A DNA stretch of 64,000 nt from a virus, in the IMG/VR virus record IMGVR_UViG_3300008259_000237, positions 5,138-69,137 of that record. The stretch is one strand, 5' to 3'. Positions 672-54,300 of this stretch are shown piece after piece. The translations under genes and the position numbers were made by a program. The notes beneath the pieces were generated by a model. It saw only the letters and a list, made by a program, of their open reading frames with translations, was not told where the DNA came from and made no database searches. Each line of letters begins with the position of its first letter. Positions within the stretch are counted from its first letter, which is position 1.

Positions 672-2909
672 TTAAAAATCAAATTTTACCAAAAATTGCT
701 GAATACCCTGTCTTAAAACAGGAGATTGCATTTTTGATATAATCATAAGATTTTTCTCCGAGTCGTAAAGACCAATGTCCGTTATATATGATTTACCCCC
801 TTGCCAAGATGGATTTGACGATGTTAAAAATTCAGAGAAACTCAAATTAACTTTATATCTCATCTCGTAGATAGTTGCCTGAATGTCGGTTTCAATATTA
901 CCATAGAAATAATATTCATCACCAAAATTCAATGTTTCACCAGATTGATTTAATTGAACCATTGGTATATAATCGTTTAAGTTATAGTAGTCAGCGTTGG
1001 CGTATAAATCTTGTGTTATAACAAAAGTAGAACCCGTTAATCCACTCTGAGTTAAACATCCGTCAACTAAAGTATTAGCAATTTGTGGTGTAAAATCGAT
1101 TATTTTCCACTCATCAGGTAAAGGTCTTGAATCCCCTTCTACAAACTGACAAATAACTTGGAACTCATCTGCAAAGAACCCTGATGTAATTGCACATCCA
1201 CTACCACAACCAACACAACTTAAACAATTAAATTCAGGTCCAAATCTAACACTCACATTTTGAGCCGTTAAATTATTACAATCTAAATTAGGCCCTTGAA
1301 TTTTATAATAATAATTACAATGTAATGAATTTGTAAAATTAGAAGAGTTACTCAAACGATATGTAACATACAAATATTCATTATTGTTTTCTAAAATACC
1401 TGTTTGAGAATTATTATCATCCCCTGAAGTATTTGGAACGACCAAAGCAACTCTCGGGGCTGGTAAAGTCCAGTTTCTGTTAGCTTTATAGGTCATTGCC
1501 GCGATAATTTCTTCATCGTCAATAATGATTATTTTGTGGTCAGGGAATACTTTACCAATTCTACTTGGGTATCCGTCTTCAATAATCCAAGGTAAATGTA
1601 CCTTGAAATTTCTTCCTTGTCCCGTGGTATCAGCAACGGTATTATCGAAAGGTTCTAATGCAAACTTTTCACCATAGAACAAATCGATTGTTTGATTTGT
1701 GTAGTGAATAATCGCAATTGCTTTTTGGTCTTTAGGTTGAACTGTTACTGTATCTCCTAATGAGTTAACGTAGTAGACAGAACTACTATCAGTTTGGCCA
1801 CTGTCTGACATATATCCAAAATATTCTTTTGAACCTATATAACTTCTTGAATTAAAATATGAATAACCCTCATATAATGAAGGTATTAACCCTGCAGGGT
1901 CTTCTGACCAAGGAATGTTCATATTCCAAATTTTAGTGTCAAATTGGTCTAAACCACATATAGATTCAAAATTGATAACATCGTCATTCCAATGTGCTTG
2001 TGGGGTGTAACTATCATATATTTCTGTCATGTTTGGTGGATAGATGAGTAATCTAGCCCAACAAGAACTATTAAATACTGTGAAATCAGGTGCCGGTCTG
2101 TCAAGTACAATTTCAGTACCACAAACTTCAACAATTCTATATGTTAAAATGTGATAACAACTACTCATTGTCATCTCACAATTAGGTGCCGGTTCTGGCG
2201 GACATAATGGAACAGGTGTTGGTTCAGGACAAGGTGGATTTGATGGTGTTGGTGTTGGTGTTACTAAACAAGGAAACGGTTCCGGAATTTGAGGTGAAGA
2301 TGATGGAGATGGTGGAGGTGTAACTGATGGTGGATATTGTACAGGGTCACACTCACAATTTGCGAAACCTGCCCCGTCATAATATATTGTTACAATATCT
2401 CCGGCTTGTGGTAATCTTAAGGTATTTGTATTACATCCATTATATTGTATCGTAATTCTATCAGTACCATCTATTGTTGACATATTAGTTATGTAATTAG
2501 AATTCAATACATACTGACTATTAGTCAAGGCCTGCCAATTTGTTGGTATAGTGGTTGTATCGGCCGTAAAAAACCCTCTCATAACCGCGGTATTATATAC
2601 AGGACTTACTACAGAATCCATATATGGTATACCATATGTGTTACCTCCATTTCCATTAACAAAATATGGGTATTTAACATATTGTTTGTTAGATTGTGGA
2701 GCACCTGCTGCGTTTTGGTCATTAAAACCGGCCTCCAAAACATTAGTATCAAACTGATTATAAAAATCCGCCAATCCATTATATGAAACTTCACTATCAC
2801 CTATTTGGAAATAAGCGATATTAAACTGTCCTTGCGATAATTTTTTACGACCAATATCGGTTAGTTTTGTGTTAATTAACCCTGCCGTATTTTTTAATAT
2901 ATAACCCAT
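672..2909 (-). CDS. Baseplate or fibre-attachment structural protein, possibly with an internal deletion near 1582
   Basis: 745-aa ORF with N-terminal LTDIGRKKL..FQIGDSE and C-terminal ITDIGLYD..MIISKMQSPV, as in phage fibre-collar proteins. Has a Pro/Thr hinge and a TATTTATA motif upstream. Confidence 0.6.
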   Translation of the reverse strand: MGYILKNTAGLINTKLTDIGRKKLSQGQFNIAYFQIGDSEVSYNGLADFYNQFDTNVLEAGFNDQNAAGAPQSNKQYVKYPYFVNGNGGNTYGIPYMDSVVSPVYNTAVMRGFFTADTTTIPTNWQALTNSQYVLNSNYITNMSTIDGTDRITIQYNGCNTNTLRLPQAGDIVTIYYDGAGFANCECDPVQYPPSVTPPPSPSSSPQIPEPFPCLVTPTPTPSNPPCPEPTPVPLCPPEPAPNCEMTMSSCYHILTYRIVEVCGTEIVLDRPAPDFTVFNSSCWARLLIYPPNMTEIYDSYTPQAHWNDDVINFESICGLDQFDTKIWNMNIPWSEDPAGLIPSLYEGYSYFNSRSYIGSKEYFGYMSDSGQTDSSSVYYVNSLGDTVTVQPKDQKAIAIIHYTNQTIDLFYGEKFALEPFDNTVADTTGQGRNFKVHLPWIIEDGYPSRIGKVFPDHKIIIIDDEEIIAAMTYKANRNWTLPAPRVALVVPNTSGDDNNSQTGILENNNEYLYVTYRLSNSSNFTNSLHCNYYYKIQGPNLDCNNLTAQNVSVRFGPEFNCLSCVGCGSGCAITSGFFADEFQVICQFVEGDSRPLPDEWKIIDFTPQIANTLVDGCLTQSGLTGSTFVITQDLYANADYYNLNDYIPMVQLNQSGETLNFGDEYYFYGNIETDIQATIYEMRYKVNLSFSEFLTSSNPSWQGGKSYITDIGLYDSEKNLMIISKMQSPVLRQGIQQFLVKFDF

Positions 2910-2913
2910 TGTA

Positions 2914-2921
2914 TATAAATA
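2914..2921 (-). promoter_or_regulatory. Putative late promoter motif TATTTATA
   Basis: One of 17 TATTTAT copies I found shortly before start codons on the sense strand. Confidence 0.6.
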
Positions 2922-2935
2922 TAGAAAGTTTTTTT

Positions 2936-4318
2936 TTATACTGTACCATTAACAACTCCACAACTACTACATCCGCTTATTGTTAAATTAGTTATGACAA
3001 AACTATCAGTGGCCTCACCAACATAACATTTATCAATTAAATTCTTAGTTATTAAAGTTGTTGTTTCAAAAGATAATGTTGTTGCGGAAGTATAACTTAC
3101 CGATGTCCAAGTTTCTGTCTTACCTGTTATATAAATTGTTTTATCTTGACATCCCGCTAAGGTGTTTAATGTTGTTGAAGTTACCGTTGTTGTAGTATTA
3201 GCACTAAAGTTTCTTCCATTTCTCTTCATTAATGTGGAATTAGTCATGGTCGCCGCGGTAGTCGTTGTTGAACTTCTAAATGTATTTGTATGAACCAAGT
3301 CAAACGTAATTGTTACTCCGCTAGGTAATGCCGGTGATGTTTTAATTGTGCTTGTATATATTGTTGAATTATTTCTTTGTTTTGTCGATTGTGTTTGTAG
3401 TGATACTTGATATATTACCGGTGATGGTGGTTCTGATAAAACAACCGTACTAAATGTTGTTCTACCTGACACATCTTTTATTACTGTACTATAAGTACCA
3501 GGTGATAACTTTGTAAATAAAGGAATGGTTCTATAAGTCAGTCCCCCATCTATAGAGTATTGGAAAGGACCCGTTCCGCTAGTTGCTCTTAAAAGAATGT
3601 TTCCATTATATGAAGTTGAACTTCTAAGTGCGGGATTTTCGGTTGGTTCATTAGTTAATGGTCCTGTATTACCAAAACCAGTTCCCGCTTCGGCCGTGGC
3701 AATTGCATTTGGAGTACAGTTTCCTTGAGTAACTGTTATAAAACTATCAGGACTTGTTCCCGGAACATTCCAATTACTAATAGGAGGTATTTGTGTGTTA
3801 TAACTAACCATTGGGAACCATAATGGTTGTGCTGTAACTACTTGCCAATATCCAAGATTATTCCATGAGATAGTATAAAGACCATCTAACGATAACCAAC
3901 TTGGTCTTCCATTAATCATCCCATTATAAACCATTGTTTGTTGGGCTGAATAAACGGGAGATGTTGAGTCTTTAATTTGTCTAAAATTCAAACATAGATT
4001 AGGGTATCCGGGGCACTGTCCTACGTTTGACGTAATTGTTCCTGATGGTCCTTCAGCAAACTGCCATCCGTTAAGTGGTGGGTTGGGTACCTCGTATGTT
4101 ATTATTGCATATTCTCCGGGTGGGTTTTCTAAAGACCAGTAAGAAGGGTCTCCTAAATTCCAAATAATAGTATGTCCATCACCGTCAGTATATTCAGGTC
4201 TTCCATTAACAACATTAGAGGTTTGGTAGAAATAATATTGATATGTTAGAGGTATATAATCATCTGTAGTGATTGTTAAAAAAAATGGAGCGTCCGGTTC
4301 TTCTAATACCTCCAACAT
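2936..4318 (-). CDS. Fibre/adhesin-like protein, probably the C-terminal part of the 4260..5768 gene
   Basis: Thr/Ser-rich, two repeated NGRP..W modules and one SprB-like unit (GTGPFQYSIDG..LSPGTY). Overlaps the upstream ORF by 59 nt in another frame. Confidence 0.55.
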   Translation of the reverse strand: MLEVLEEPDAPFFLTITTDDYIPLTYQYYFYQTSNVVNGRPEYTDGDGHTIIWNLGDPSYWSLENPPGEYAIITYEVPNPPLNGWQFAEGPSGTITSNVGQCPGYPNLCLNFRQIKDSTSPVYSAQQTMVYNGMINGRPSWLSLDGLYTISWNNLGYWQVVTAQPLWFPMVSYNTQIPPISNWNVPGTSPDSFITVTQGNCTPNAIATAEAGTGFGNTGPLTNEPTENPALRSSTSYNGNILLRATSGTGPFQYSIDGGLTYRTIPLFTKLSPGTYSTVIKDVSGRTTFSTVVLSEPPSPVIYQVSLQTQSTKQRNNSTIYTSTIKTSPALPSGVTITFDLVHTNTFRSSTTTTAATMTNSTLMKRNGRNFSANTTTTVTSTTLNTLAGCQDKTIYITGKTETWTSVSYTSATTLSFETTTLITKNLIDKCYVGEATDSFVITNLTISGCSSCGVVNGTV

Positions 4319-5768
4319 CTAACCCATAAAGTTCAATGATATGAGACCCCGCTGTTAAATCTATAGGGTATATGTGCCAATATTTAAAAGTAATACCCTG
4401 GCTTGATGCCCCCATAGAACCTGATTGTGTATCAACAAAAGCAACTCCATCGACAACAAATCTAAAATTATTGTCAGCCCCTAAACCAACCCAATATGTT
4501 TTAGTTTCAGGCGCATTAACACATTTTGTGAAACCTAACCAAACATTCTCAAAAGCTGACCCGTCTATAGATGCATCAACCCAAACCGCACTTCTATTCA
4601 TTGGTCCTTGAGATGACGAATTATTACTAATCCAAACTAAAGGTGTAACTGATAGATAAGCGTTTGAACTTGTGTATGGTGGAATATCTCCTGGACTAGC
4701 ACCATTAAACTCAAAAGTACTATGAAATCTTGTACCTAAAATACTATAGGCCCCATTACTAACGTCCCTAAGAGTCACTAAATTAGTTGGTGGAGTTGCG
4801 TCAACGGTATATTGTACACATCCAGTTGGTGTTGGAGTTGGTGTTGGTGGTGGTGTTGGTGGTGGTGAAGGGGCTGTTAATACGCAAGTTGTATACGCGG
4901 TAAAATCTCTGTAATAATCAGTCACAATCGCCGAATAAGTACCAACTGATAGATTCGTTATAAATAAACCATTACTACCGTTACTCCAAAAAACATCATA
5001 TGGTGGAGTTCCTCCTGTAATAATAAGTGATAATTCACCATTCGCTTCCGTAGTTACTGTTGGGTCGTTTCCTACACAAGATACTCCAAGTGGGAATAAC
5101 ACAATTGGGTCACATTCGTTTCTTTTTAGGATATTATCTCCACATCTTGTATCCGAAGTAAAAAATATTGTAGGTGTCGGTTGTGGTTTTGCCGCACACC
5201 CTATGGTTGTTCCTGTACATATTTGACAAGTCGCATAACTATCATACGAATATGGTATGTTTTGATAAATCGATATTCCTTCAGGTACCCCATCTGAACT
5301 AACCACACTTGCACATGCTGAAATTGAGGATACTCCAATTAAGTAAACCTGTCCTAGTTGGAAAATACCAGGGTCGGTTAGGATACTAAAATAATCATCC
5401 TTTGGTTCTTTATTTTGGGGGCAACAGTATTTAAAATATGTAAATTCTTGTTCAACTGGACATGGGTGAACATCTAAACATCCTGAAGTGGTAGGATAAC
5501 TACCCGATAATAGATTTAAAGTAAGAGCCGTATATACAGGGTATGTTGGGGTTGTTGCTGACGATATAAATTTAAAACACCCTGATATTTCTGATGGGAC
5601 GCCTGTACAGTTTGTAATACAACCTGATACACTACTAAAATAAAAAGAATAATTTAAAAACCCATAAGATAATGATATATTACCTTCACGACCTGAAAAT
5701 CCAATATAATTAGAATTAATACAATCTGCCGAAAAATTATAATATATTGTAGATGAAGGTATTGCCAT
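4260..5768 (-). CDS. Cys-rich fibre/adhesin-like protein with an SprB-type repeat (N-terminal part)
   Basis: GGTPPYDVFWSNG..NLSVGTYSAIVTD unit, PTPTP hinge and a jelly-roll-like GADNNFRFVVDG segment. The last ~15 aa look out of frame. Confidence 0.6.
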   Translation of the reverse strand: MAIPSSTIYYNFSADCINSNYIGFSGREGNISLSYGFLNYSFYFSSVSGCITNCTGVPSEISGCFKFISSATTPTYPVYTALTLNLLSGSYPTTSGCLDVHPCPVEQEFTYFKYCCPQNKEPKDDYFSILTDPGIFQLGQVYLIGVSSISACASVVSSDGVPEGISIYQNIPYSYDSYATCQICTGTTIGCAAKPQPTPTIFFTSDTRCGDNILKRNECDPIVLFPLGVSCVGNDPTVTTEANGELSLIITGGTPPYDVFWSNGSNGLFITNLSVGTYSAIVTDYYRDFTAYTTCVLTAPSPPPTPPPTPTPTPTGCVQYTVDATPPTNLVTLRDVSNGAYSILGTRFHSTFEFNGASPGDIPPYTSSNAYLSVTPLVWISNNSSSQGPMNRSAVWVDASIDGSAFENVWLGFTKCVNAPETKTYWVGLGADNNFRFVVDGVAFVDTQSGSMGASSQGITFKYWHIYPIDLTAGSHIIELYGLDVGGIRRTGRSIFFNNHYR

Positions 5769-5797
5769 TTTTTATATAAATAATAGAATATTCATTT

Positions 5798-8700
5798 TTA
5801 TGGACATTGTGTTACTTGGAAGGTGAATCCCATTTTAGTCGCAGTTGAGCAAATTACTTTTATTATGTTTGGTCCAGCACTTGTTTTAGTAAACTGTAGT
5901 ATTAAATTAGGTTCAGAGCTTGGTGATGCGGGTGTTGGGTAATTATTAACCACACCTATCTGTCCTGGTGTTCCAGTACTTCTACTTATATCATAATTTG
6001 ATATTTCACTGAGAGTCCCTAAAGGTCCATACTTTATTGAGTTGGTTAACCAATTAATATTACTACCCGCTAAGGATGTTGCATTCCCGTTACCTTCACA
6101 ATAAAGATATTTATTTCTGTATACCGGTCTTGTTCCGAGTTCATCAATGTTGGAATTTGTGATTCCAGTTACATAAGTTATAGTCCCGTTATTTCCGTTC
6201 ATTTGCAAATTATTTCCATAAACAAATAATGAATCCGCAACTATAACATTATTCCATTCAATTTGATATCTTATTGGAAGTTGGAGACTTGTTGTTTGAT
6301 ATGTGAAAGTTACTTGGACTACCCCAATACCAGAACCAACATTAACATAGGTTTCAAATATACCGTCATTACTGGCATTACATATTTCAACTGAAACGGT
6401 ATTTCCACACTCAATTTCACATATTGAGAATAGTTCAGTAAAACAATTTGTTTGTTGTGCAATACTATCTATCGAACCTCCCGCACTGATTTCAGAACTA
6501 TAAGTAACACTATATGGGAAGGTGGTATCAACTTCATACACATTTGATGTGTCATCAACTAGATAAATAACGCCATTATCAACAAAAAGACCTGACGGTT
6601 CACCAGCTATATCAACAGGATTTATTTGAGACTCAATTAATTGTGAGTAATTGTTTGTTTCGTGAACACATATATAATAATCTTCAAACGGTGCCGAACT
6701 TTCATCAACTTGTAGACTAATCATTTGTGAGTAATCTTGGTTGAAAATTATACGCCCCACTGTATTTCTGTTTTCTGATAATACGACTTTATTAGATATT
6801 ACCGGAACATTTGTTGTTATATCAAGTTCTACAAAATAATTTAAATATCCACTTATACTTCCATTTGGGGCGATAAGTGCATTATTAAATCCTTGAGTAC
6901 TAGTGTTAACTGTAACTAATTTTGTATTACTTCTCACACCAATAGCCTCTCCCATTTCAAAACCAACATTTAAGGTTCTATTTAAAACGGAGGTAAAACC
7001 GTTAAGTGTTATATCATATTCCTGTATTGATGATGAATTAACACCAACTGAATAAACCCAAAGTTTACTACTTGTAAACGCAATACTTTGACTGTCATAT
7101 GTATATTCAGTAATAGTTAATAAACTACTTGTATCAGAACTAAATTCATAAGCGTAGGCTTCGTTTGGAGGTTGTATATAAATCATATCACAATCTTTGA
7201 TTACTGGTCCTGGTGTTGGTGGTATATTACAAACACATGATACATCATAACTTATTTTTAAAGCAACTGTAACTTGGCTGTTATCTAAAGATAGTGAAAG
7301 GTCTGAACAATTTGTTTGTATAGTAATTCTGTTTTCATCAGGTAGTATGATAACGTTACCTATTACGGAATATGATAATAAAGCGTCTTTGATTGCATCA
7401 AACCATTGATTATCTGTAGGGTAGTCACCTAAACTATTACTTGTGTAGAAAGCAGTTTCCACATTAACACCAGCTAAACTAACCTGACTATAAAAAATTG
7501 CTTCGTTTAATACGCAATTAGTTTCACCAGACACTAAATCATAATAACCTTCAGTATACATCTGAGGTATTTTCTTAGCAATTACAACTCCATTATATAG
7601 TAATGTAGATTCACAATAATCAAATACATCATAAGTCCCAAAACTATTGTACCCATAAATTGTGGTCGACCTTGTTAATTGACAACCATTTCCATCGGTT
7701 ATAAGTGCGGTGTATGTTCCGGCACTTAGATTAGTTAATGTTAAACCTGTTTGTCCGTTAACATTATTACTTATCCATGATACAGTATATGGTGGAGGTC
7801 CGTCAGTAATATATGTTTGGACTTGACCGTTATTAATATTAGAAGCGTCAGTTGGAACTAATGTAAAATCAATACTTGGTGTATCAGGAACAATTATGGT
7901 CTGTGTTTGTGTACAATTTGTAAAATCAGATACACTGACAAAATATGTTCCGGCAAACAAGTTATTGAATGTAACTGCGGTTTGTGAAGTATTTGAAATT
8001 GTTGGTTGTCCTTGGAACTGATAAGTGTAGGTTGATGTGCCTCCGGTAGACAGAACTATTTTCACAGAGCCGTTATTTGTATCACAAGTACTACCTGTTA
8101 TTTCAGTTGAAAAAGTAAATTTTTCAGTGTTGTTTATTGTATACGTATTTGTAAATGAGCACGATGTGTTCGATATTGTTAATGTATACGTACCTGCCGA
8201 TAATCCTTGGAACTGATTTGTAAATCCATTTATTGTTTGTTCTATTGAATTACCTGACGGATAAGTCAATGTATATGTGAATGGAGGGGTCCCTCCGTTC
8301 AAAGTAATTGGACTTAATGCTCCTGATGAATTATTACATGTTGAGTTAACTATCCCAACTGTTAATATTGAAAACCCATTTGGAGCGGTTAAAGAATACT
8401 GATATGTACTAGTACATAAACCAGCATCCGTAATTGTGATGTCATACACACCTGAAGAAAGTCCACTTAATACAAATTGTTGGTTAAAAGTTATTAAAGA
8501 TTCCCCATTACTAGCAACATAATTGTAAGGTGGAGTACCTCCTGAAATTAATATTGTAATTTGACCTTCATTACCGGAACAACTTGGTGATACAGGTATA
8601 TAATCAACGATTCCAACAGGTGGTACAGTATCGACTGTTGCTAATTTAGTTACTTGACATCCTGTAGAATCAGTAAGTGTTAATTGATATACACCCGCAG

Positions 8701-9397
8701 TAAGACCCGTTAAACTACTTATTCCTGGTATAGGGTTCCCTGCCGGACTAGGAGACCATTGATATACATATGGTGGGAATCCAGTAGCCCCTGTCACATA
8801 TATTTTACCTCCTGGTGCCGGGTCACAAGCGGTGTCATTAACAATATAAAAACCAAAATCTAATTCAGATGATGTTTTTATAATACAAGTTTCTGATTTA
8901 CCTGAACATCCTCCCCCATCATTAACTATCACATAATATGTACCAGCATTTAAATTTGAGAATATAAAAAAATCCTGTATAGAATTACCTGAGGTTATAT
9001 ACCCACTTGTATTTTCAAACAAAAAGTAATCAGTGTTTGAAAGATTATTGTCAGTTTGTGCGGTTATTACTCCGTTTGGTAGATTACAGGTAGTGTTTGA
9101 GTGTGCGTAAATTGATGAACACACTCCGTCAGATATTACCGCATTAACATAAGTTGTAGTTGGGCTGCCAGCACAACTGTCTTGAATTAAAAATGTATAT
9201 GTGTTTGGAGTTAAATTTGTTTGTGTAAATGAACTAACTCCAATAGGTAAGGGTGTTAACGCACCTGTAGTTGGGCTAATTAATTGGTAATAAAATGGTG
9301 GAGTTGAGCCCACGATATTAATTGTAAAAGCACCCGAACCTGTGTTTAAACAATCCCCCGTAACTGAAACTCTAGCTGATAAATTACATGTCGCCAT
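5798..9397 (-). CDS. SprB-repeat tail fibre / receptor-binding protein
   Basis: Seven tandem units of C..NG.I....GG.PPY.Y....L.AG.Y..T.TD..GC type, followed by a distinct beta-rich C-terminal half. Confidence 0.7.
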   Translation of the reverse strand: MATCNLSARVSVTGDCLNTGSGAFTINIVGSTPPFYYQLISPTTGALTPLPIGVSSFTQTNLTPNTYTFLIQDSCAGSPTTTYVNAVISDGVCSSIYAHSNTTCNLPNGVITAQTDNNLSNTDYFLFENTSGYITSGNSIQDFFIFSNLNAGTYYVIVNDGGGCSGKSETCIIKTSSELDFGFYIVNDTACDPAPGGKIYVTGATGFPPYVYQWSPSPAGNPIPGISSLTGLTAGVYQLTLTDSTGCQVTKLATVDTVPPVGIVDYIPVSPSCSGNEGQITILISGGTPPYNYVASNGESLITFNQQFVLSGLSSGVYDITITDAGLCTSTYQYSLTAPNGFSILTVGIVNSTCNNSSGALSPITLNGGTPPFTYTLTYPSGNSIEQTINGFTNQFQGLSAGTYTLTISNTSCSFTNTYTINNTEKFTFSTEITGSTCDTNNGSVKIVLSTGGTSTYTYQFQGQPTISNTSQTAVTFNNLFAGTYFVSVSDFTNCTQTQTIIVPDTPSIDFTLVPTDASNINNGQVQTYITDGPPPYTVSWISNNVNGQTGLTLTNLSAGTYTALITDGNGCQLTRSTTIYGYNSFGTYDVFDYCESTLLYNGVVIAKKIPQMYTEGYYDLVSGETNCVLNEAIFYSQVSLAGVNVETAFYTSNSLGDYPTDNQWFDAIKDALLSYSVIGNVIILPDENRITIQTNCSDLSLSLDNSQVTVALKISYDVSCVCNIPPTPGPVIKDCDMIYIQPPNEAYAYEFSSDTSSLLTITEYTYDSQSIAFTSSKLWVYSVGVNSSSIQEYDITLNGFTSVLNRTLNVGFEMGEAIGVRSNTKLVTVNTSTQGFNNALIAPNGSISGYLNYFVELDITTNVPVISNKVVLSENRNTVGRIIFNQDYSQMISLQVDESSAPFEDYYICVHETNNYSQLIESQINPVDIAGEPSGLFVDNGVIYLVDDTSNVYEVDTTFPYSVTYSSEISAGGSIDSIAQQTNCFTELFSICEIECGNTVSVEICNASNDGIFETYVNVGSGIGVVQVTFTYQTTSLQLPIRYQIEWNNVIVADSLFVYGNNLQMNGNNGTITYVTGITNSNIDELGTRPVYRNKYLYCEGNGNATSLAGSNINWLTNSIKYGPLGTLSEISNYDISRSTGTPGQIGVVNNYPTPASPSSEPNLILQFTKTSAGPNIIKVICSTATKMGFTFQVTQCP

Positions 9398-12390
9398 TAA
9401 CTACAAATTATATTAAAATTAATTCCAACCCCAATTTTAAGGACTAGTCCACCTCCCTGAATTGAGCATATATTATTATATATTACCACAGAATCATTTT
9501 GAAAATAATAACCATAACCATAATTAGATAAAGAGGTGAGTGCGGAATCTAATCCATTTAACCATTCTGTATTAGAAGGATAACTAAGTCCATTAAACGT
9601 ATACCCAACCCCATTATAAAATGGGTACTGTATAAGTTGTTGCCCATTTATTTTAATATCCACATACCATGTTGAGCTTATACTTGTGTCTAAACATTGG
9701 TTGAAATCCAAGTTATTATTATTTAAATATGTATTTACTATGTTACCTAAAATTGCGTCAAAACTTGTAACATTATTAGTGAAAGGATAAACACTACAAG
9801 TTGCGGTTTGAACTGGACAATCGTTTGAGTATAAGTTATCGGTTGCAACACAAGGTTTACATGGTATTGGTACTAGCTGGCATCCGGCTTGTCTTCTCCA
9901 AACAAATTTTTGTCTGTGAAATATTGAGTTTTCGTATCTAATACCAGTATTCCAAATGGTTGTTGCGGGTATCATTTGTTCAACTAATCTAATCCAATAG
10001 TCCCCCATACCCTGCACATAATCCATCATACTCTGATAATTAAAATTATTGCTATCGACTCCCGCAATTTCTTCTGATTGAAGATATCTCCAATATATTG
10101 ACTCTAAGGTTGGATATGAGCCAAAAAATTGTCTATTTCTTACATTAATAGTATTTTTCCAAAATGTTTGAGCAAATTCAAAAAATGTTTTTTGTCTTGG
10201 TTGTGGATTAATTTCAGTCCAATCGACTCCATCTCTGTCAGGATACATAGAGTACGGATGCGGGTTACATTTAGTTGGTTTTACCCAATTTAAACCCTGA
10301 TTAGGTATTGGGAAATTATACTGTTGGGACATGTACCATACGTCATAGGCCAACCCTTGTCCAGGGTTCATAAATAAATCAATATTTTTAACGTTTAAAA
10401 CAAGTTTTTCGTTTTCAACGTAATAACTTGCATTTAAATTACCATCTAAATTTTGTCTTAACCCTACCTCATTATCTGTCCAACTTTTATTATTATCAGG
10501 AATCGGAGTTAAATCAAACCCCAAATTCATATATGGGAATTTTCTAAATCTGTTTAAATATTCTTGACCGTAGGTATATGGTATTAAACTTGTTTGATAG
10601 TTTGGATTATTTCCAGTAAAAACACTTAGTGTCGTATTTGTTTTTGCCGGAGACCTATGTTGTGGTGTGGACTCAAACCACCCACTACCTAATTGAAAGA
10701 AATACGATTCGGTGTCTTCAGGTGCCGATGGATAACCATCATCGTCTACGGGGTATGCGGATTTACCAATATTTACATCATCAATTACATAAGTCGCAGT
10801 ATATCCTGTGTAAGGAACTCCAAATATTGTATATATATTTGTAGGGTCTAATACTGATGTACTCTGTATATATGTACCTCCTGATATGTTTGCAAACTTG
10901 GTTTCGAACTGACTTAATTTTATTTTTTGGTCAGCAACATAAACAAATTCGTTAAAATCAACTAAAGCATCCGGAGCACCTATTAATCTCATTAGTACTT
11001 CTATCGCTTTTCTTGTACCTTTAGACTTAAACAAAAACGCGGCGTTCAAACACAAATTTCTGTAGTATTGGTAATTTAGTTCCGCCGGTGTTTCTGGAGT
11101 TGCGACTCCAGTAAAATTAGATGATTCACTATTTTTTTGTCCAAAAACCGCATCCAAAAATCCTGACTCAGTTATTGGGGATATATCAGTATTAAATCCT
11201 AATGTTTTTGCTAAATTTTTCAGTAATTGTGAGGGTATGTCATTACCCACATTATAATTTACCGAATTCATGTAAGCTAATGCACTTATATATTTTTTTG
11301 TGTCGTCAAAACTTCTTCCATATATCTGTAAAGTTTTTTCAACCTTTTGCCCTATTGTGTCAAAATCTTTTATCGCACCAGTAATTAAAAATCTACTAAT
11401 TAAATTCGATACATATTCATCAAAAAACGCTGAGACCTCATCTATTTTTAATAAGTAATTTGTAAAAAGTTGTGTCCTAATATCCAAATTCCACCTACCG
11501 TCTTTAGACCAAGTAACATTTTGAGTCGTTAGTTGATAAGTACCGTCATTCTTTTCTTGCGGTACTTGGAATTTTGCAGTGTAGATAGGTGAGGTATCTC
11601 TACTTAAAAGAAACTTTTCAACCTCATCTAAATCTTCACTGAAAACCTTACTAACTTCTTGGTCATTAGGTCTAATTATTAAAGTTTCTCTAGTTTCATT
11701 AAGACCTGAAAATGGGTTTCCCTCAAAATAAATTTTCAAAGAACCTGAAGTTAAACTATCTGTGGGGATAATCCTTGTTATTGAATATCCTTGATTCTTA
11801 TAATATACAGAATATTTAGCGTATTCAACTGTCATGTTTCTCAATGGAGAAACTTTTATTTCTTTAAGTTGTAAATTTCTAGTTGAATTAACTGTAAAAT
11901 CAATTTCAAAAGGATTTCTTATTTTTGAAATGTTTATCTCAAAACTAGTTTGGTCTGATTCGGGATAGTAGGTTATGTTTATTGCGGTTGGAGTTTTAGA
12001 ATAATCTTTACCTAACTCATTTATTTCAATACCCGCCGGAAACTTACTAATAATTGATGTTATGGAAACGGACATCCTTTTAACCATCGACCCAAATTGT
12101 ACAAAATTTGTAACCTGTGATAAATCAAAATTTGGATATACTTTAAAATTGTTTTCAAAAATCGCTTTAGATTGGGATATACTACTTACCCCTAGTGAGT
12201 TCAAACTTATTGGGTCTGAAAAAGCACCGGTATTAAACTCTCTATTAACTTTCTCAACAACACCTGTTGTAAACTCAAAATTACCTTGCGTAAGTCCCCC
12301 ACCTGACGTGAGTTGGAATCCAACTAAGTTGTCAGAAAAACTTCCTTGTGCGGACGCTTGTGGTGGGCAGGTAAATTTTTTTATTGCCAT
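9397..12390 (-). CDS. Baseplate wedge protein (T4 gp7 / P2 gpI-like core)
   Basis: LLKNLAKTLGF ... FKSKGTRKAIEVLMRLIG resembles the KGT helical motif of gp7/gpI-type wedge proteins; baseplate gene context. Confidence 0.6.
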   Translation of the reverse strand: MAIKKFTCPPQASAQGSFSDNLVGFQLTSGGGLTQGNFEFTTGVVEKVNREFNTGAFSDPISLNSLGVSSISQSKAIFENNFKVYPNFDLSQVTNFVQFGSMVKRMSVSITSIISKFPAGIEINELGKDYSKTPTAINITYYPESDQTSFEINISKIRNPFEIDFTVNSTRNLQLKEIKVSPLRNMTVEYAKYSVYYKNQGYSITRIIPTDSLTSGSLKIYFEGNPFSGLNETRETLIIRPNDQEVSKVFSEDLDEVEKFLLSRDTSPIYTAKFQVPQEKNDGTYQLTTQNVTWSKDGRWNLDIRTQLFTNYLLKIDEVSAFFDEYVSNLISRFLITGAIKDFDTIGQKVEKTLQIYGRSFDDTKKYISALAYMNSVNYNVGNDIPSQLLKNLAKTLGFNTDISPITESGFLDAVFGQKNSESSNFTGVATPETPAELNYQYYRNLCLNAAFLFKSKGTRKAIEVLMRLIGAPDALVDFNEFVYVADQKIKLSQFETKFANISGGTYIQSTSVLDPTNIYTIFGVPYTGYTATYVIDDVNIGKSAYPVDDDGYPSAPEDTESYFFQLGSGWFESTPQHRSPAKTNTTLSVFTGNNPNYQTSLIPYTYGQEYLNRFRKFPYMNLGFDLTPIPDNNKSWTDNEVGLRQNLDGNLNASYYVENEKLVLNVKNIDLFMNPGQGLAYDVWYMSQQYNFPIPNQGLNWVKPTKCNPHPYSMYPDRDGVDWTEINPQPRQKTFFEFAQTFWKNTINVRNRQFFGSYPTLESIYWRYLQSEEIAGVDSNNFNYQSMMDYVQGMGDYWIRLVEQMIPATTIWNTGIRYENSIFHRQKFVWRRQAGCQLVPIPCKPCVATDNLYSNDCPVQTATCSVYPFTNNVTSFDAILGNIVNTYLNNNNLDFNQCLDTSISSTWYVDIKINGQQLIQYPFYNGVGYTFNGLSYPSNTEWLNGLDSALTSLSNYGYGYYFQNDSVVIYNNICSIQGGGLVLKIGVGINFNIICS

Positions 12391-13298
12391 TAAGAAGTTA
12401 TATTTGTAAAGCTTTTACTGAAGTCAATATTACTTCCTCTATTTTCACGAACCTCAAACAACAGTTCATTAAACTGATTTTTAATTTCGTAAAGATTGTA
12501 TTGTTTATAGATATTGTTATCTTCATCGTAAATTGTGTAGATACCGTCATCAATAGATTTGGTTTGATTTCCGTAAAGTGCGTACGCTAATGTTGAAAAG
12601 TCATGTTCAGCAATCTCAATATCTAAAGTGATTGGATTGAAGAATGTATTTGATATAATAATATTCTGGTTTGGTTGTCCGATATACGGTGTGGCGTTTG
12701 GTTTATTCGTTGGTGATGTTGATGGTGTTAAAGTACAGAAAATTAAATTTGTATTATTTTCGGTATACCTATATCTGACCGCCTTTTGTGATGTGTTTGT
12801 AAGATTTTGTATTACGGGTTCGCAATAGAATGAAGATGTTATTATTCTAAAAAAATTAGGTATTTTAGTTCCGTCAGGATTAAGATATTCGACTCTAAAT
12901 CCAACTAAACCTTGGTTAACAAATTTATTTCTATATTGTGATGGTACTGCGTTTAAATCAATGACCAAACCTCTTACTGTTGGTAAAGCGGATAAAACAC
13001 CACAATCAAGAATTGTTGTTCTTATCTGTGCAGGTCTTATAAAAATAGTATATATCCCTAAATTATTAAATGTGTCGGCAGGTAATTTTAGATTATATAA
13101 ACCACCCAAAACTTCAATACCTGCGTTACCGCCAGTACTGTCGTTACAAAAATATGGTTTCAAAACTGCGGTTGAGTCCAATTTGGTTAATAAAAAATTA
13201 TCGGTATCATCTCTCGATGGTGTATAGTTAAGAATAATCTCAACATCTTCTGGACTTACATCTGCCGGTCTTATAGTTCCATATGTTCCTGTTGCCAT
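12390..13298 (-). CDS. Hypothetical virion structural protein
   Basis: 302-aa ORF in the structural operon, with a TATTTATC motif upstream. Confidence 0.55.
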   Translation of the reverse strand: MATGTYGTIRPADVSPEDVEIILNYTPSRDDTDNFLLTKLDSTAVLKPYFCNDSTGGNAGIEVLGGLYNLKLPADTFNNLGIYTIFIRPAQIRTTILDCGVLSALPTVRGLVIDLNAVPSQYRNKFVNQGLVGFRVEYLNPDGTKIPNFFRIITSSFYCEPVIQNLTNTSQKAVRYRYTENNTNLIFCTLTPSTSPTNKPNATPYIGQPNQNIIISNTFFNPITLDIEIAEHDFSTLAYALYGNQTKSIDDGIYTIYDEDNNIYKQYNLYEIKNQFNELLFEVRENRGSNIDFSKSFTNITS

Positions 13299-13343
13299 AT
13301 TTTAAAATTTTAATCCTTATTGATAAATATAAAAGTGTCTATT

Positions 13344-14501
13344 TTATGTACTTCTTATGGTGAAATACTTGTACCCATAATTTTTCAAATCTCCAAATGT
13401 TGCAACTTCACCCAATCTCTCAATTTGTTCTAACGCAGTGTTTTTCCCTCGTTCTATAAAGACATTGGATTGAATCATACCTTCGTTAATGACATTCATT
13501 AAAACTTCGTTTTTAGTAATGGCTGAACAAGTATTATCTATAGAACATCCCGATGAATACACTTGAAATGTTGTAACTCCATTTGGATAATCTCGGTATT
13601 CAATGTCGTTTATAGTATATGCGGTATACCCTTCTATTGTTGATACTCCTTTGAAGACACCCACAGAGCCAGACGCTCCGCTTACTTTTTGGTCAATTCT
13701 GTATTTTACAGGTCCATAAAGTTCTACATCACTTAATGATGATTTTGTAAATCCTGATACGATAAAGGGAATTGTTGTAAAATCGCAACATGGTTGAGAT
13801 ACATCACACAACATTTCATCATAGTGATAAATGTAATCGTATGAAATTGGTGTTGCCGACCAATTACCACCTGCCGGTACGAAAAACGCCTCTCCATTTG
13901 GGTCTAATATTGTTGTTGTAGTTGCCGGAAGATATACATCTTTTTTTACTATGTTATAACCCCAAGGACTTAATCCTGACATAGATATGGTAAATTTACC
14001 ATCAAAAGAGTAAGTATGACTATATGGTGTTGGTGCGACAGAGTTCACCGTTTGTATCGGAGTTCCGTCTCCCCAATCTATAATATAATCTGAAAACTTT
14101 AAATATTTTTTAAATTCTTTATCAGATGTATTATAAAAATTAACCTGGTATGGGTTTGCGGTTGTTTGTTCAAAAAGAAAATTCATCATGGTATCCTGTT
14201 GTGTGACAAACCCATCAAAAACATTGTAATACCCTATATCAACAGTATTCTCAGTTAAGAAAATTGGTATTGTAATATCTAACAAGGACTGCCCATTGGG
14301 GCCGCCTGTTATAATCTCAGTCATTGATGAATACACATATGTAACCCCTGTTGTTAAACCTGTTAATGGTGGTGGTATTATGTCACAACATGGGTCTTGG
14401 GATTGGGGAACAGAATAATCTCCATCAATATAAGTTACCTCAAATAGTTTGTTTTTTATAACTTCAGGCGAAATTCTTATGGAATAAATTCTATTTTGCA
14501 T
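13344..14501 (-). CDS. PKD-domain structural protein
   Basis: IIDWGDGT...SHTYSFDGKFTISM matches the PKD signature. Confidence 0.6.
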   Translation of the reverse strand: MQNRIYSIRISPEVIKNKLFEVTYIDGDYSVPQSQDPCCDIIPPPLTGLTTGVTYVYSSMTEIITGGPNGQSLLDITIPIFLTENTVDIGYYNVFDGFVTQQDTMMNFLFEQTTANPYQVNFYNTSDKEFKKYLKFSDYIIDWGDGTPIQTVNSVAPTPYSHTYSFDGKFTISMSGLSPWGYNIVKKDVYLPATTTTILDPNGEAFFVPAGGNWSATPISYDYIYHYDEMLCDVSQPCCDFTTIPFIVSGFTKSSLSDVELYGPVKYRIDQKVSGASGSVGVFKGVSTIEGYTAYTINDIEYRDYPNGVTTFQVYSSGCSIDNTCSAITKNEVLMNVINEGMIQSNVFIERGKNTALEQIERLGEVATFGDLKNYGYKYFTIRST

Positions 14502-15283
14502 TATGATGGGTCAATATATTCATACCAGTTTATTTCACTTCCTAATCCAATTCTATTATCATTAGAATCAAAAATTTCGTATGTGTAATTTGTATAATCT
14601 AAAAAAACTTTATAATAAAAATATTTTGAAGCATCGAATGATGTGGGGTTAGGTAACGAAGTAGGATTAGCATTCATCATTCTAACAAACACTCCATTTT
14701 TTGCATCGAAGAATTTGGCACTCATATAAAAAGTATCAAGATTTAAGAACTTTTTATCTCTCATCCAATACCAAAAAAATCCTTCTCTATTTTTGACATA
14801 ATCTAAAATAAATTCAGGTCGTTCAACTAAAACTTGGGGTAAATACGGACTAATAGTCACCAAATCTTCTTCACCTGTTTGTATAGGTAATATAACCGTA
14901 AACTGAATTGACTGTGTAATCGTGTCATTTGTATTGTAAAAATCTAACTTAAAAAATGACCTTTCAAAACTATTACTTATGTAGTAATTTTCGTCTATGG
15001 TAAATCCAGCGGCTTCGTAATTATTTTCCCAGTTGGATGTTATATTGCTATAAAAATAAAATTTATAATTAATTCTAGTTTGTTCATCATTACCATATGG
15101 TTTATGAGCAAATCTTAAAATTTCAAAATCCTTTGCAATACCGATGGCTTCTTTTATTGCGGTTTCTTCCCATATTTCAATACTGTCTTCTTGTCCGGCA
15201 AAATCCCATTTTATTTCGAATGGTAAATCAACAGATTTAGTTCCAACAGGGAATTTAAAATAATATTTATTATTCACATCCAT
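14501..15283 (-). CDS. Hypothetical structural protein
   Basis: 260-aa aromatic-rich ORF overlapping both neighbours. Confidence 0.55.
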   Translation of the reverse strand: MDVNNKYYFKFPVGTKSVDLPFEIKWDFAGQEDSIEIWEETAIKEAIGIAKDFEILRFAHKPYGNDEQTRINYKFYFYSNITSNWENNYEAAGFTIDENYYISNSFERSFFKLDFYNTNDTITQSIQFTVILPIQTGEEDLVTISPYLPQVLVERPEFILDYVKNREGFFWYWMRDKKFLNLDTFYMSAKFFDAKNGVFVRMMNANPTSLPNPTSFDASKYFYYKVFLDYTNYTYEIFDSNDNRIGLGSEINWYEYIDPS

Positions 15284-30597: not shown

Positions 30598-31430
30598 TTA
30601 CTTTTTGGTTTTAAATTGTTTTTTTTCTTTTCTTGTTAATTTCATAAATGGTTTTACGAAGTTTTAATCTCAAAAAATTCATTTCCATAGATACCTGATT
30701 TGGTTTTACCTGTTAGTAAGTTTTGTAATACTTTGTTGTCTTTGTCTTCTTTTAAAAGAAGTTCTGCCTTTTCTAAAATATCGGTAAAGGTAACCGGTTT
30801 TTCAAGTATTTCAGGAAATAATTTTACCAAAGTTTTTTCACCCAAATAATAAATCCCATCAATATTATCTGACTTATCACCAGATATTATCTTATAGGTT
30901 TTAACATTATAGTGGGGAATCTCAGCTTCATACAATCTGATGTAGTCACCTTTTTTGTATGTGAATTTTGTATTAGGTGAGTATATTGAGACGTTATCTG
31001 ATATTAACTGAGTCAGGTCTCTATCCGCCGAGAAAATGGTTATAATCTCATCATTTGCAATTTGACAATAGTAAGCAATTAAATCATCAGCCTCATTTCC
31101 GTTAATATCAACTTGACGAATAAACATTTCTTCAAGGTATTGTTTAATCCTTGATTTTTGTTCGTAAAGTGATTCTTCTTTAAAATCTTGGGGAAGCGGT
31201 CTACGATTTTCTTTGTATTGGGGATAAATTAATTTACGAGCGGATGAACTACCTTCCCCATCCCAAAACACAACGACCTTATCAAAATTTTCTTCTTCAA
31301 TAAAGCGTCGGGTGGTATTCAGAAAATGCCAAATACCCCCGACATGCCTTCCTTCGTGAAAGAAATCTCTTACTCCGTGAAATCCAATTTTAAGTAAATT
31401 GTTACCGTCAATTAATAATGTTTTGGTCAC
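30598..31430 (-). CDS. 5'-3' exonuclease / flap endonuclease (T4 RNase H or PolI N-domain-like), frameshifted near 30664
   Basis: LLIDGNN, VVFWDG, YKENR, EADD, SADRDL and GDKSDNIDGI. The ORF stops at 30654, but an out-of-frame tail NFVKPFMKLTRKEKKQFKTKK* runs to 30598. Confidence 0.88.
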
Positions 31431-31441: not shown

Positions 31442-32309
31442 TTATTGTTCAACTTCTTCTTTCAAATCAAAATCCAAATCTACAACACCAAGAACATCTT
31501 TCCAATATTCAGCATGTTCTTTTTTGTATGACTCAATAGATGCCTTTTCTTCTGCGGGTTCTTTACCCGCCATAAATCCATGTGGTGTAACTATAATTTT
31601 ACCATCTTCATAACCAAGTCCGTTGATGTGATTTTTCAACACAGAAACTTTGGTTCTTGTGGCAAATTTAACAGTTCTCTTGTCTTTTGTTGCCGTAATC
31701 TTTGTAGTGCCAGCACCTTTTTGATTACCAAACAAAAATACCAAAGATGAGTTTAACCAAAATACCAATCTTGTCAGCAAGTACTGAAGCGTTATGTTGC
31801 TTTCCACCCTTACCTTCAAATGTCATCTTACATGGGACTGAACCAACAGAATCCCAAAGGAATAACAAACTGTAATCTAATTCACCTTTTTCTTGAGCAT
31901 CTAATAATGAATTGATGTATTCTGTAATCTGTTCAATATAATCAAAATTATTATTGAATAGATAGAACCCATCCCAATCAATCTCACCTGTTGTCTCATC
32001 AACGACTTCTTCGCACTGAAATCCCATAATACGAGCATGGTCAAATGACCACTTTTGCTCGGTAATGATGAATACAGGTAGAATTCCTTTCTTCTGAGCG
32101 TCAACTGCCGCCTTAACAAGAGCGGTTGTTTTACCTGTATCAGAATGACCCAAGAACATATTGATATGTCCTATTGCGGGTCCTGGAAGTCCAACCGCAT
32201 CCAAAAATTCAGTTCCCAAATCAAAATACCTTTGTGGTTTGTATTTTGCTGAGGTTGAGAATTTGGATTTGATTGATTCAAGTCCAATTTCTTTTTTCTT
32301 AATTGCCAT
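31442..32309 (-). CDS. RecA/UvsX-like recombinase, split into two frames near 31761
   Basis: Walker A GHSDTGKT and Walker B FLWDSV in ORF 31725..32309. The C-terminal WLNSSLVFLF..TKVSVLKNH part is in ORF 31442..31819. Confidence 0.88.
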
Positions 32310-33496: not shown

Positions 33497-33520
33497 AAAA
33501 AGGGACCGAAGTCCCTTTTT
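33497..33520. terminator. Intrinsic terminator (symmetric A/U tracts, UUCG loop on the minus strand)
   Basis: AAAAAGGGAC CGAA GTCCCTTTTT directly after the 33521 stop codon. Confidence 0.85.
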
Positions 33521-34198: not shown

Positions 34199-34202
34199 TT
34201 TT

Positions 34203-34427: not shown

Positions 34428-34467
34428 AGTGTTTTTATTTATAAATATCTTACTAAATTAAAAATTA

Positions 34468-51299: not shown

Positions 51300-51309
51300 A
51301 TTAATAAAT

Positions 51310-51337
51310 AAAAAACAAGCCGGTTTTTACACCGGCT
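51310..51337 (-). terminator. Intrinsic terminator after the sheath gene
   Basis: Minus strand AGCCGGT GTAAAA ACCGGCT TGTTTTTT. Confidence 0.75.
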
Positions 51338-54300
51338 AAATCTTACCTGTCATTTGGTTTCTATCTAAGTCCGCAGTGTCTGAAGAAACAGTTACACGGA
51401 AATCGTATAAACCTCTGTCTCTTCTGATTGCGTCTAAGATTGGGTTAACCGCATCCAAGAAGTCCTGTCTAACCTTTTGGTCGTTTTGTTCAAACAACAA
51501 TCTAACAGAAACTGCGGAAATCAACTTACGAGCTTGTAATAACAATCTTCTTACGTTGATTCTGTCAAGAGCCGACTCTCTAACTTGAAGAGTTTTATTA
51601 CCCCAAATTACCGTTCCTACATCAGAGAAGGTTGCAATTGGGTTAATTCTACCTTTATATAGAGTGTCTCTATCTTCTTGTGTGAGTTTCTTACGAGCTT
51701 TAATCGCGTTCACTATACCACGAGTGTAACCTGCCGCCGCGAACCAAGGGAATGCGATGTTATCGGTTAACGCCAAGTTTCTTGTAACTTCAGCAGTTGG
51801 TGGTAGGTAAATTTGAGTGTTGTTAACACTATCACGAGTTAACACCCAAGGGTAATAAGTACAAGTGTAGTTAGAGTCAATACCTGTTGTCTCAAGATTA
51901 TCCACCGCTTCTTGTGGGTAAATTAAATCTTCTGAGTTACCTGGTGCTGATACAAACATATTGTAGTCAGGTGTTGTACAGATATATAAAGAATCCGCTC
52001 TGTCGTACTCAATCATTTCGATTGCTGATTCAACAAGATTAGAATTATTCACATAATCAATACCTGGAGTTACAAATACGTTGATATTAGTGGCTTCAGG
52101 GTTTTCAAAAGATTTTTGACCAAGTAAGTAAGCGTAATAGTCGGTATTTGCCCAATCAACTGAATTTTTGTTAATTGTAATTTTCTTAAACGCTCCCCAA
52201 CCTGTTGCATTTGGATAAGTAATTGATTCACAAGCTCCTTTTAAGTAACCTGATTTACCAATAACAAATCTGTCAGAGTTTGTTCTATATTCTCTATAGA
52301 TATCCCATCCGTCAAATCCTCCTTGAACCGCCACAGTAAATTTACGAGCGAATAATCTGTAGTAAGGATTTGTCTCATCATCAGGGTCTGTTATAAATGA
52401 ACCAGAACCAACAAAGAACGCCGACTCACCACTTGTTGCAAATCCATTTGATATTGTAATACCTGTTGCATTTTTATCCATGTGGAAACCTTTAGTTCTG
52501 TAACCCCACTCATCACCTGTGTCATCTAGACAAATGTTATTAGGAATTCTTTTACCTTTGTAAGCGAAGAAATCAACATCATAACCTACAGTATCTGACA
52601 CACCAAGATAAGTTCTACGAACATTATCACCCGCGCTTGTGATGCTGTCATCATTTCCGGCCGCAGTACCAAAAGGTGGGTTGTAAACCACTTCACCTGG
52701 TAGGTCGTATTTTGTTTTATAGATAGGAAATGGAGGTACCACTCCTGCGTATTCTCTCATGTTGAATCCTAAGAATCCACAAGGAAGAGCGTCTACAGGT
52801 GCGTCTTCATTCATCTCTATCATTATGTATTTTGAGTTCAATTGATATTCACCATCTGAGGTACCTATTTTAACCGCAATGAAATTATTTTCATTTGGGT
52901 TCATACTACAGTTAGTAAACTTCTCAAGAACTACAGGTGCGTTATCTGAATCAAAATAATCTCTAACCAATATATCAAAAGTTTGATTAGCAAATGACAT
53001 GTTAGCCAAAGAAATTTTAACAGTAATATTAGCATCATCACCATCAGGAACCGTGTGGAATCTGAATAGGTTATAAACTTTAGTACCTCTTAATTCGGAA
53101 ACAATCCAAGGAGAAATTGCCGACTGATATCTCTCTAAATAAAAAGCGATTGAAGTTGGGTCCGCCGCTTGTCTTGCATCAGGTAATGCGGTTAAAGAAG
53201 TACTCAAACCTTTGATATAACCTTTTCTCCAAGCGTAAGTAAGAAGATTTTGATATCTTTCCTCCACAAACAACGGAACAGTTTGTCTAGGTTTTCCAAA
53301 ATTAGTAGAACCAAACACTTTTCCAATATATTGAGAATCAGAATTAGTAAATGATGTTTGGAAGAATAAATTAGTTCCGTCATTATTTGTTACATTTAAT
53401 CCGAATGTTGAGAAAGGATTTTTTGTAACTCCTGAATACTGTCCAGTTGTTACCATTGACACGTCATTCATTCCGGTTACTTCATATACCGCTCCAGTGT
53501 CGTTACCATAAGTTGCAACACCTCTTGAACGTAATGTAGCAATAACCATGTCATCGTAACTTAAATAAGGTGTTCCTGAGTATACAAAAATTTGTCCCGA
53601 CAATGTACCTTGATAACATCTAGTTATAGTTCCTGTATTTTGAGTTCCTGCGCTTGTAAAATTACAAGGATTACATGGGTCATTAACAACTGCAGTAACT
53701 GTCCATTGTTCAGTAACCGTTCCGTCATTTGAAACTACCTCAAAAATAACAGTTCCCGCACTGAAATTAACAGGTGTTGCTCCGTCATAAATTGTACCTA
53801 CTCCGTTAACACTCACATTTGATGCGTCTACACAAGTTGTAAAACTAGGAATAAATTCGCCTAAAGGACTTGGTACACATACTGAAATTGTATTTGTGTT
53901 ATAATTTATAATACCATTGTTACCGTCTAAACTAAAAGTATAGAAAGTTGCACAATTATCAGCGGTTGATGTCAGTTCAAATGAACTGATGTACGAATAA
54001 AAAGAGTATCCTGAATATCCACCAACTTCGTGGGAGTTATTGTCAAATAATCCATAGTACCAAGGGTCATTATTTGGGTCTGTATAGTCATAACCTGTAG
54101 AAGATACGCTATCAACACCAAAAACATTAGTCGCTGCGGTATATGTTGGGGATAACGCACTGTATGTTTCCCCTGAAATTACACCGTAGTAATATATTGT
54201 GTTTGCGGTGGTTGAACCTGTACCTCCGGCTAATATTGAATTAAATATTTGGGTATCAATGTTTGATTGAACTGTTGTTACACTACCGTTAAACAACTCC

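What the first reader, a model, noticed from the sequence alone, without database searches (positions are those of the whole stretch)
1575..51345. Several otherwise intact genes each lack a short segment at a sharp junction
Seen: frame breaks or abrupt ends in RecA (~31761), the exonuclease (~30664), the sheath (~51338) and a fibre gene (~4305). Inferred from family motifs: in-frame gaps in the gp6-like gene (~23396) and the 745-aa gene (~1582). The flanks show no other decay, so this is not ordinary pseudogenisation, and I did not spot the missing pieces elsewhere in the window. The junctions share no clear consensus beyond 1-2 nt A/T ambiguity. A phage with these lesions should be crippled. 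The simplest explanation is scaffold gaps whose Ns were removed. If the junctions are real, the options are a defective genome or genes completed by segments supplied from elsewhere (DNA insertion or trans-splicing), which would be a new system.
Basis: partly seen in the sequence, partly recalled or inferred. Interest (0 to 1): 0.8.

Follow-up and report, generated by a model that had tools for sequence, protein, structure and literature searches.

The report
Assembly holes in lake phage genes
Six short pieces (98-224 bases) are missing from genes of this lake-phage sequence, but near-identical phage sequences from other samples carry five of them in place (more distant relatives carry the sixth), so the breaks are almost certainly gaps left by genome assembly, not biology.

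Summary
The record (69 kb linear IMG/VR piece, 21% complete) is part of a large T4-like freshwater myophage. It lacks 165, 224, 183, 175, 143 and 98 b at 1581, 4304, 23396, 30664, 31761 and 51337. The same phage population has the pieces in place. Contigs about 99.9% identical carry 165 b net (X1/X2) and 224 b (X1/X2, X3) at the first two junctions. L001 (97%) is intact at exonuclease and RecA, and L160 (99.6%) at the sheath. gp6 is shown only from relatives at 75-84%. None of 399 loci holds a junction-spanning 24-mer, and every scorable homologue keeps the segment. Where measurable, junctions have 0-1 nt overlap and no in-register repeats, so neither a de Bruijn misjoin nor slippage fits. All gaps are shorter than a usual read-pair insert. 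Best reading: scaffold gaps closed without their Ns. The source reads were not seen, so that step is inferred. The scan's earlier notes showed no similar case. Not a real feature; interest 0.04.

The parts
1581..1582 (-). Junction 1: 165 b (55 codons, in frame) missing from the 745-aa gene 672-2909 (about 800 aa in relatives)
4304..4305 (-). Junction 2: 224 b missing from a fibre-like gene, which is split into ORFs 4260-5768 and 2936-4318 (one 1018-aa frame with 224 b added)
   Evidence: (X1, X2, X3); one ORF in relatives L081, L082, L086
23396..23397 (-). Junction 3: 183 b (61 codons, in frame) missing from the baseplate wedge (gp6-like / Baseplate_J) gene 22515-24170
   Evidence: intact only in relatives at 75-84% DNA identity, not checked in the same population
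30664..30665 (-). Junction 4: 175 b missing from the 3' part of the 5'-3' exonuclease gene (30654-31430), frameshift
   Evidence: L001, 97% identical, intact
31761..31762 (-). Junction 5: 143 b missing from the RecA/UvsX-like gene, which is split into ORFs 31725-32309 and 31442-31819 (336 aa when intact)
   Evidence: L001
51337..51338 (-). Junction 6: 98 b missing: last 27 codons and stop of the tail sheath gene, the intergenic bases and the start of the 5' arm of its terminator hairpin
   Evidence: L160, 99.5-99.7% identical, intact; 1193 aa
68..63841 (.). Host sequence: structural and replication genes of a large T4-like myophage (sheath, tube, baseplate, RNR, DnaB, exonuclease, RecA, gp32, PolB), otherwise intact

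Best explanation
The six junctions are assembly artefacts. Shown: the record lacks six 98-224 b segments that near-identical members of the same phage population carry in place (five junctions; the sixth, gp6, only from 75-84% relatives). Inferred: the assembler broke the contig at these points, which are mostly stretches conserved among co-occurring relatives or close to Pro/Thr repeats. Read pairs then bridged the short gaps, and the placeholder Ns were dropped before the record was deposited, so the contig ends were butted together. The real phage has intact genes. About 0.93 for 'artefact of some kind', of which about 0.75 is this scaffold route.
For: Same-population contigs are intact. 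X1/X2 record 1/7 (3944 b, depth 37, 2 differences in 2723 b) runs across junctions 1 and 2 with 168 (net 165) and 224 extra letters, and X3 shows the 224 as well. L001 (97%) has the 175 and 143 b pieces; L160 (99.5-99.7%) has the 98 b piece. Homologues keep the segment: 79 of 79 (745-aa), 141 of 142 (gp6, 1 locus ends), 165 of 171 (exonuclease, 6 end), 158 of 163 (RecA, 5 end), 78 of 80 (sheath, 2 end), and none lacks it (counts include the reference locus and repeated contigs). Junction-spanning 24-mers with up to 2 mismatches: 0 of 399 loci at all six, while flank 24-mers hit 15/41 (exonuclease), 111/10 (RecA) and 1/44 (sheath) loci. An exact 29-mer across the sheath junction: 0 hits in IMG/VR. 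Overlap at the junctions is 0, 1 and 1 nt for RecA, exonuclease and sheath and 0 at 4304, far below the k-1 overlap a de Bruijn misjoin needs (established knowledge). No direct repeat has spacing equal to a gap. All gaps are under 250 b, the range that read pairs bridge; Chen et al. 2020 (PMC7111523, passages) describe Ns inserted in gaps spanned by paired reads, incomplete genes that result, and strain mixtures that break de Bruijn assemblies. The missing pieces lie in conserved parts of their proteins (percentiles 0.93, 0.50, 0.97, 0.84, 0.90; rough p about 0.004). Left of junction 1 the window differs from X1/X2 at 6-7 of 179 b against 2 of 2723 b on the right, as if two strains meet there.
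Against: The source reads and the original scaffold were not seen, and the record has no Ns, so N-removal itself is inferred. None of the other 399 loci shows such a hole in eight conserved genes or a run of three or more Ns, so no positive control for this artefact was found in the same collections. Shared 21-mers are enriched in the missing pieces of RecA (0.87 vs 0.39), sheath (0.75 vs 0.16; biased by the C-terminal query) and gp6 (0.35 vs 0.15), but not of the exonuclease (0.29 vs 0.32) or the 745-aa gene (0.11 vs 0.10). The 24-mer control is weak for the 745-aa, fibre and gp6 junctions (0-1 flank hits). Logan contigs drop rare variants; 27 joints and 448 pieces were not shown; the raw-read run X21 had only 12 reads on the stretch and none at a junction. 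X1 and X2 look like one data set, so only two independent runs were laid, on two of the six junctions.
Confidence: 0.93

Rival explanations
1. A different artefact route (counted within the 0.93 above): holes made by read filtering or depth normalisation, by a reference-guided consensus that dropped uncovered positions, or by joining contig ends during curation without fill.
For: It gives the same blunt geometry, and removal of k-mers shared with abundant relatives would also favour conserved stretches. The record has no Ns.
Against: The gap sizes cluster under 250 b, which suits read-pair bridging better than arbitrary uncovered stretches. Nothing here can tell the routes apart.
Confidence: 0.18
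2. A real defective genome: one phage lineage picked up six small deletions and is copied and packaged with the help of a co-infecting intact relative.
For: The record has no Ns. Such holes are absent from the other 399 loci, so they are not a routine feature of these collections. Intact near-identical phages exist that could act as helpers.
Against: It needs six independent deletions in core genes (sheath, baseplate, RecA, exonuclease) with no other decay, no microhomology or repeat, and only 988 b saved from a genome of about 330 kb. It would also have to dominate its sample. The joined form appears in no other sequence examined.
Confidence: 0.05
3. Programmed completion: the missing segments are stored elsewhere and supplied by DNA insertion or trans-splicing.
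For: Only about 21% of the genome is held, so storage elsewhere cannot be excluded from this record alone.
Against: The population already has the segments in place. The segment ends share no motif, and three junctions break codons in different phases. The sheath piece includes intergenic DNA and part of a terminator arm. No copy lies in the 69 kb held.
Confidence: 0.01

Closest known systems
Scaffolding gaps and local assembly errors in metagenome assemblies (Chen et al. 2020, PMC7111523; passages read)
   Same: Short unsequenced stretches inside genes, bridged by read pairs, that give incomplete or broken proteins in public databases. Strain mixtures are a known cause of breaks.
   Different: The passages read describe gaps marked by Ns. 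Here no N remains, so the N-stripping step is inferred.
Immutovirus immuto (Flavobacterium phage vB_FspM_immuto_2-6A, NC_055915)
   Same: The only isolate hit for the intact RecA (45% identity, residues 18-317 in one piece, which covers the missing part). Same gene order: ssb, recA, exonuclease, DnaB, nrdB, nrdA.
   Different: 160 kb genome with a family A polymerase, whereas this record is estimated at about 330 kb and has a family B polymerase. It is a distant relative and has no deletions.
Large freshwater Bacteroidetes phages carrying bS21 (Chen et al. 2022, PMC9723584; abstract and passages read)
   Same: Freshwater phages of 293-331 kb predicted to infect Bacteroidetes. Relatives of this record lie on contigs of 317-328 kb, and weak SprB/T9SS-tail Pfam hits below cut-off point the same way. 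Those authors had to fill scaffolding gaps in all 49 of their sequences.
   Different: Membership was not tested: no bS21 or terminase comparison was made.
Defective interfering or helper-dependent phage genomes (recalled)
   Same: Essential genes broken, intact relatives present.
   Different: These usually lose large blocks through repeats or microhomology (recalled). Here there are six blunt losses totalling 988 b, seen in one record only.

Membership tests
Scaffold-gap artefact | Segment present in independent assemblies of the same population | tested here: met
   five of six junctions at 97-99.9% identity; gp6 only at 75-84%
Scaffold-gap artefact | Gap shorter than a read-pair insert, blunt, no k-1 overlap | tested here: met
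   98-224 b; overlap 0-1 nt at the four junctions where it could be measured; the library's insert size is unknown
Scaffold-gap artefact | No source read spans the junction; N-runs in the original scaffold | not testable with these tools
   source reads and scaffold file not available; the record holds no N
Scaffold-gap artefact | Breaks fall where co-occurring relatives share k-mers or at repeats | tested here: inconclusive
   protein conservation high at 4 of 5; 21-mer sharing enriched at 3 of 5
de Bruijn misjoin or repeat collapse | Repeat of about 20 b or more at both ends of the lost segment | tested here: not met
   (three junctions with near-identical intact loci)
Slippage or recombination deletion | Microhomology or direct repeat at the breakpoints | tested here: not met
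   0, 1, 1 nt and 0 nt
Defective (helper-dependent) phage genome | The deleted form exists as DNA molecules | tested here: inconclusive
   not found in X1/X2/X3 contigs, 399 loci or an IMG/VR pattern scan; contigs drop rare variants and the source reads were not seen
Split or trans-spliced genes, programmed rearrangement | Missing piece encoded elsewhere, with shared junction signals | tested here: not met
   not in the 69 kb held (21% of the genome); no shared end motif; in place in the population
Natural short alleles of the family | Homologues lack the same segment | tested here: not met
   no scorable homologue lacks it in five genes

The most novel reading that the evidence does not exclude
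The junctions are real DNA: a helper-dependent variant of a roughly 330-kb freshwater phage has lost six short, conserved pieces of core genes by blunt, repeat-free deletion, is complemented in trans by co-infecting intact relatives, and rose to dominate one sample.
Probability: 0.04. Interest if true: 0.7.

Novelty: not a real feature. Interest (0 to 1): 0.04.

Why it matters
As biology it matters very little: the real phage almost certainly has intact genes. As a caution it is useful. A public viral record without any N can still hide closed scaffold gaps that look like clean deletions, frameshifts or split genes, and these would mislead annotation and scans for recoding or split genes. The signature is several blunt losses of 100-250 b in otherwise undamaged genes of one record. 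If source reads did span the junctions, this would be an unusual defective large phage and worth a second look.

Tried and rejected
Missing pieces elsewhere in the record: blastn, tblastx, tblastn and an own-genome search gave only chance-level hits (best E 0.028). Fibre-gene relatives by protein pattern in IMG/VR: none confirmed. An exact 21-mer beside junction 2 in IMG/VR: 0 hits, so the letters of the 224-b piece were not obtained. An exact 23-mer beside the RecA junction in metagenome contigs: 0 hits; the protein scan there gave relatives of at most 86% amino-acid identity. Raw-read run X21: 12 reads, no junction coverage, no evidence either way. A positive control for N-run gaps: the Ns in L018 are single ambiguous bases with no loss, and the NN in L114 could not be judged. 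Candidate extra holes rejected: 20767 (natural variation); 57370 (L160 continuous, the extra 1104 b belongs to L176/L215); about 660 and 50465 (intergenic length differences in distant relatives). The PDB search placed only the N-terminal P-loop part of RecA, so the assignment of the lost RecA piece to the strand and L2 loop after Walker B is recalled, not shown. An 18-mer at the candidate seventh junction gave 14 IMG/VR matches with no similarity beyond 21 b. One literature search with four terms returned nothing. Two look-ups of the scan's earlier notes gave no similar case. Supplements of the two papers were not opened.
Full report
What the sequence is. The window is bases 5138-69137 of a single 69,137-b record, G000, with no N. 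It is a linear IMG/VR virus record that CheckV rates 21% complete, which implies a genome of about 330 kb. Profile scans show a T4-like myophage: sheath, tube, baseplate wedge and hub, class Ia ribonucleotide reductase, DnaB, 5'-3' exonuclease, UvsX/RecA, gp32, SNF2 helicase and family B polymerase. Relatives lie on contigs of up to 317-328 kb. Twenty listed runs from 12 studies, labelled freshwater, lake water or fungus metagenome, hold 76-96% of the sampled words of 28000-36000. The only isolate hit is Flavobacterium phage immuto (RecA 45%, same replication gene order). A Bacteroidetes host is therefore an inference.

Checking the observation. I fetched 399 related loci and aligned them to the window. 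At 1581/1582 the gap is 165 b (28 of 40 loci with a junction there; the others give 157-189). At about 23396 it is 183 b (20 of 21), at 30664 175 b (20 of 22), at 31761 143 b (75 of 75) and at 51337 98 b (L160). The fibre gene is too variable for relatives to size it, though relatives have one ORF where the window has two. Laying runs on 1400-21300 sized it at 224 b, which restores one 1018-aa frame by arithmetic; 143 b likewise restores the 336-aa RecA. The total lost is 988 b. A search of 38 window ORFs for further holes found only a candidate near 20767, which X1/X2 contigs cross without a gap. The flanks are undamaged: RecA 1-183 is 182 of 183 identical to L001.

The same phage has the pieces. 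In X1 and X2 one 3944-b contig at depth 37 runs over junctions 1 and 2, with 168 letters in place of 3 (net 165) and with 224 extra letters, and differs from the window at only 2 of 2723 bases between them. X3 also shows the 224 letters, and its contig that starts at 1582 carries 63 unmatched letters before it. The raw-read run X21 gave 12 reads and no junction coverage. L001, 97% identical over 6.4 kb, has the exonuclease and RecA pieces. L160, 99.5-99.7% identical over 7.3 kb, has the sheath end, its stop codon and the full terminator hairpin. For gp6 the best intact relatives are 75-84% identical, so that junction was not tested in the same population. With intact proteins as queries, the segment is present in 79 of 79, 141 of 142, 165 of 171, 158 of 163 and 78 of 80 scorable loci (745-aa, gp6, exonuclease, RecA, sheath). 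The remainder end too early, and none lacks it. These counts include the reference locus and repeated contigs, and loci without a well-aligned left flank were dropped; for the 745-aa and gp6 genes that filter also dropped the window itself, whose gaps show. No locus holds a junction-spanning 24-mer with up to 2 mismatches (0 of 399 for each junction). The flank control is strong for exonuclease, RecA and sheath and weak (0-1 hits) for the other three. An exact sheath-junction 29-mer has no hit in IMG/VR, though the record itself may be left out of that scan.

Anatomy of the junctions. Overlap between the two ends is 0 nt (RecA), 1 nt (exonuclease), 1 nt (sheath) and 0 nt (fibre). No direct repeat has a spacing equal to a gap, and the segment ends share no motif. 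This rules out a de Bruijn misjoin, which needs a long overlap, and gives no support to slippage or recombination (established knowledge). The lost pieces are ordinary coding sequence, and in the sheath case also intergenic DNA. They tend to be conserved: percentiles 0.93, 0.50, 0.97, 0.84 and 0.90 among same-length windows of their proteins, rough p about 0.004 (a post hoc test on correlated windows). At DNA level, 21-mers shared with other loci are enriched in three of five pieces and not in two. Left of junction 1 the window differs from X1/X2 at 6-7 of 179 b, a hint that two strains meet at that point. The pieces are not elsewhere in the 69 kb held.

How it most likely arose. Shown: segments missing from one record, present in its population, blunt ends, all under 250 b. 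Inferred: the assembly broke where related phages share sequence or where repeats lie, read pairs bridged the short gaps, and the placeholder Ns were removed before deposition. Chen et al. 2020 (PMC7111523; search listing and passages only) state that scaffolders insert Ns in gaps spanned by paired reads, that uncorrected gaps put incomplete genes into databases, and that coexisting strains break de Bruijn assemblies. Chen et al. 2022 (PMC9723584; abstract and passages) had to fill scaffolding gaps in all 49 sequences of large freshwater Bacteroidetes phages. Neither set of passages describes N-stripping, and I did not open supplements. Against this reading: the source reads were not seen, no other fetched locus shows such holes or an N-run of three or more bases, and Logan contigs drop rare variants. 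A real defective genome (0.05) would need six blunt hits in core genes with no other decay and almost no length saved. Programmed completion (0.01) is not needed, since the population has the pieces in place.

Verdict. Not a real feature. Interest 0.04. The most novel reading not excluded is a real helper-dependent multiply deleted phage (probability 0.04, interest 0.7 if true). Two look-ups of the scan's earlier notes gave no similar case and did not affect this reading.

Noticed in passing
G000:C1 about 1055-1062 (upstream of the window): Probable seventh junction of the same kind: a + strand Thr/Pro-rich ORF (173-1075) ends abruptly, and a start-less ORF (1047-1517) with similar Cys-rich repeats continues in another frame. 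Not sized; a pattern scan found no relative.
   Followed up: partly
window 1400-1581: The stretch left of junction 1 differs from X1/X2 contigs at 6-7 of 179 b, against 2 of 2723 b on the right: the record may be a strain mosaic at that join.
   Followed up: no
window 57370 (SNF2 helicase 56819-58624); L176 and L215: Two relatives carry 1104 extra bases at this point, possibly an intein or homing element (inferred). The window and L160 lack it.
   Followed up: no
window 58659-59780: Phage-encoded Fe/Mn superoxide dismutase (Pfam Sod_Fe_N and Sod_Fe_C) with a C-terminal extension of about 145 aa.
   Followed up: no
window 24648-25271: Gene matching PHROG 3704 ('ferredoxin') between nrdA and the gp25-like gene; matched in only 16 of the fetched loci.
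   Followed up: no
window 2936-9397: Cys- and Thr/Pro-rich fibre-like proteins with weak SprB-repeat and T9SS C-terminal hits below Pfam cut-off. The domain at residues 319-498 of ORF 4260-5768 sits in other genes in relatives (L082, L153, L154), which points to domain shuffling. Earlier scan notes on related phages proposed a virion glycosyltransferase beside such proteins; not tested here.
   Followed up: no
window 51336-54836; L160 2784-6365: The tail sheath is unusually long (1193 aa when intact), with about 900 residues before the part matched by Pfam sheath domains.
   Followed up: no
window about 20767 (ORF 17072-22441): 26 of 79 relatives have 20-25 more residues here; same-population contigs match the window, so this is natural length variation.
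   Followed up: yes
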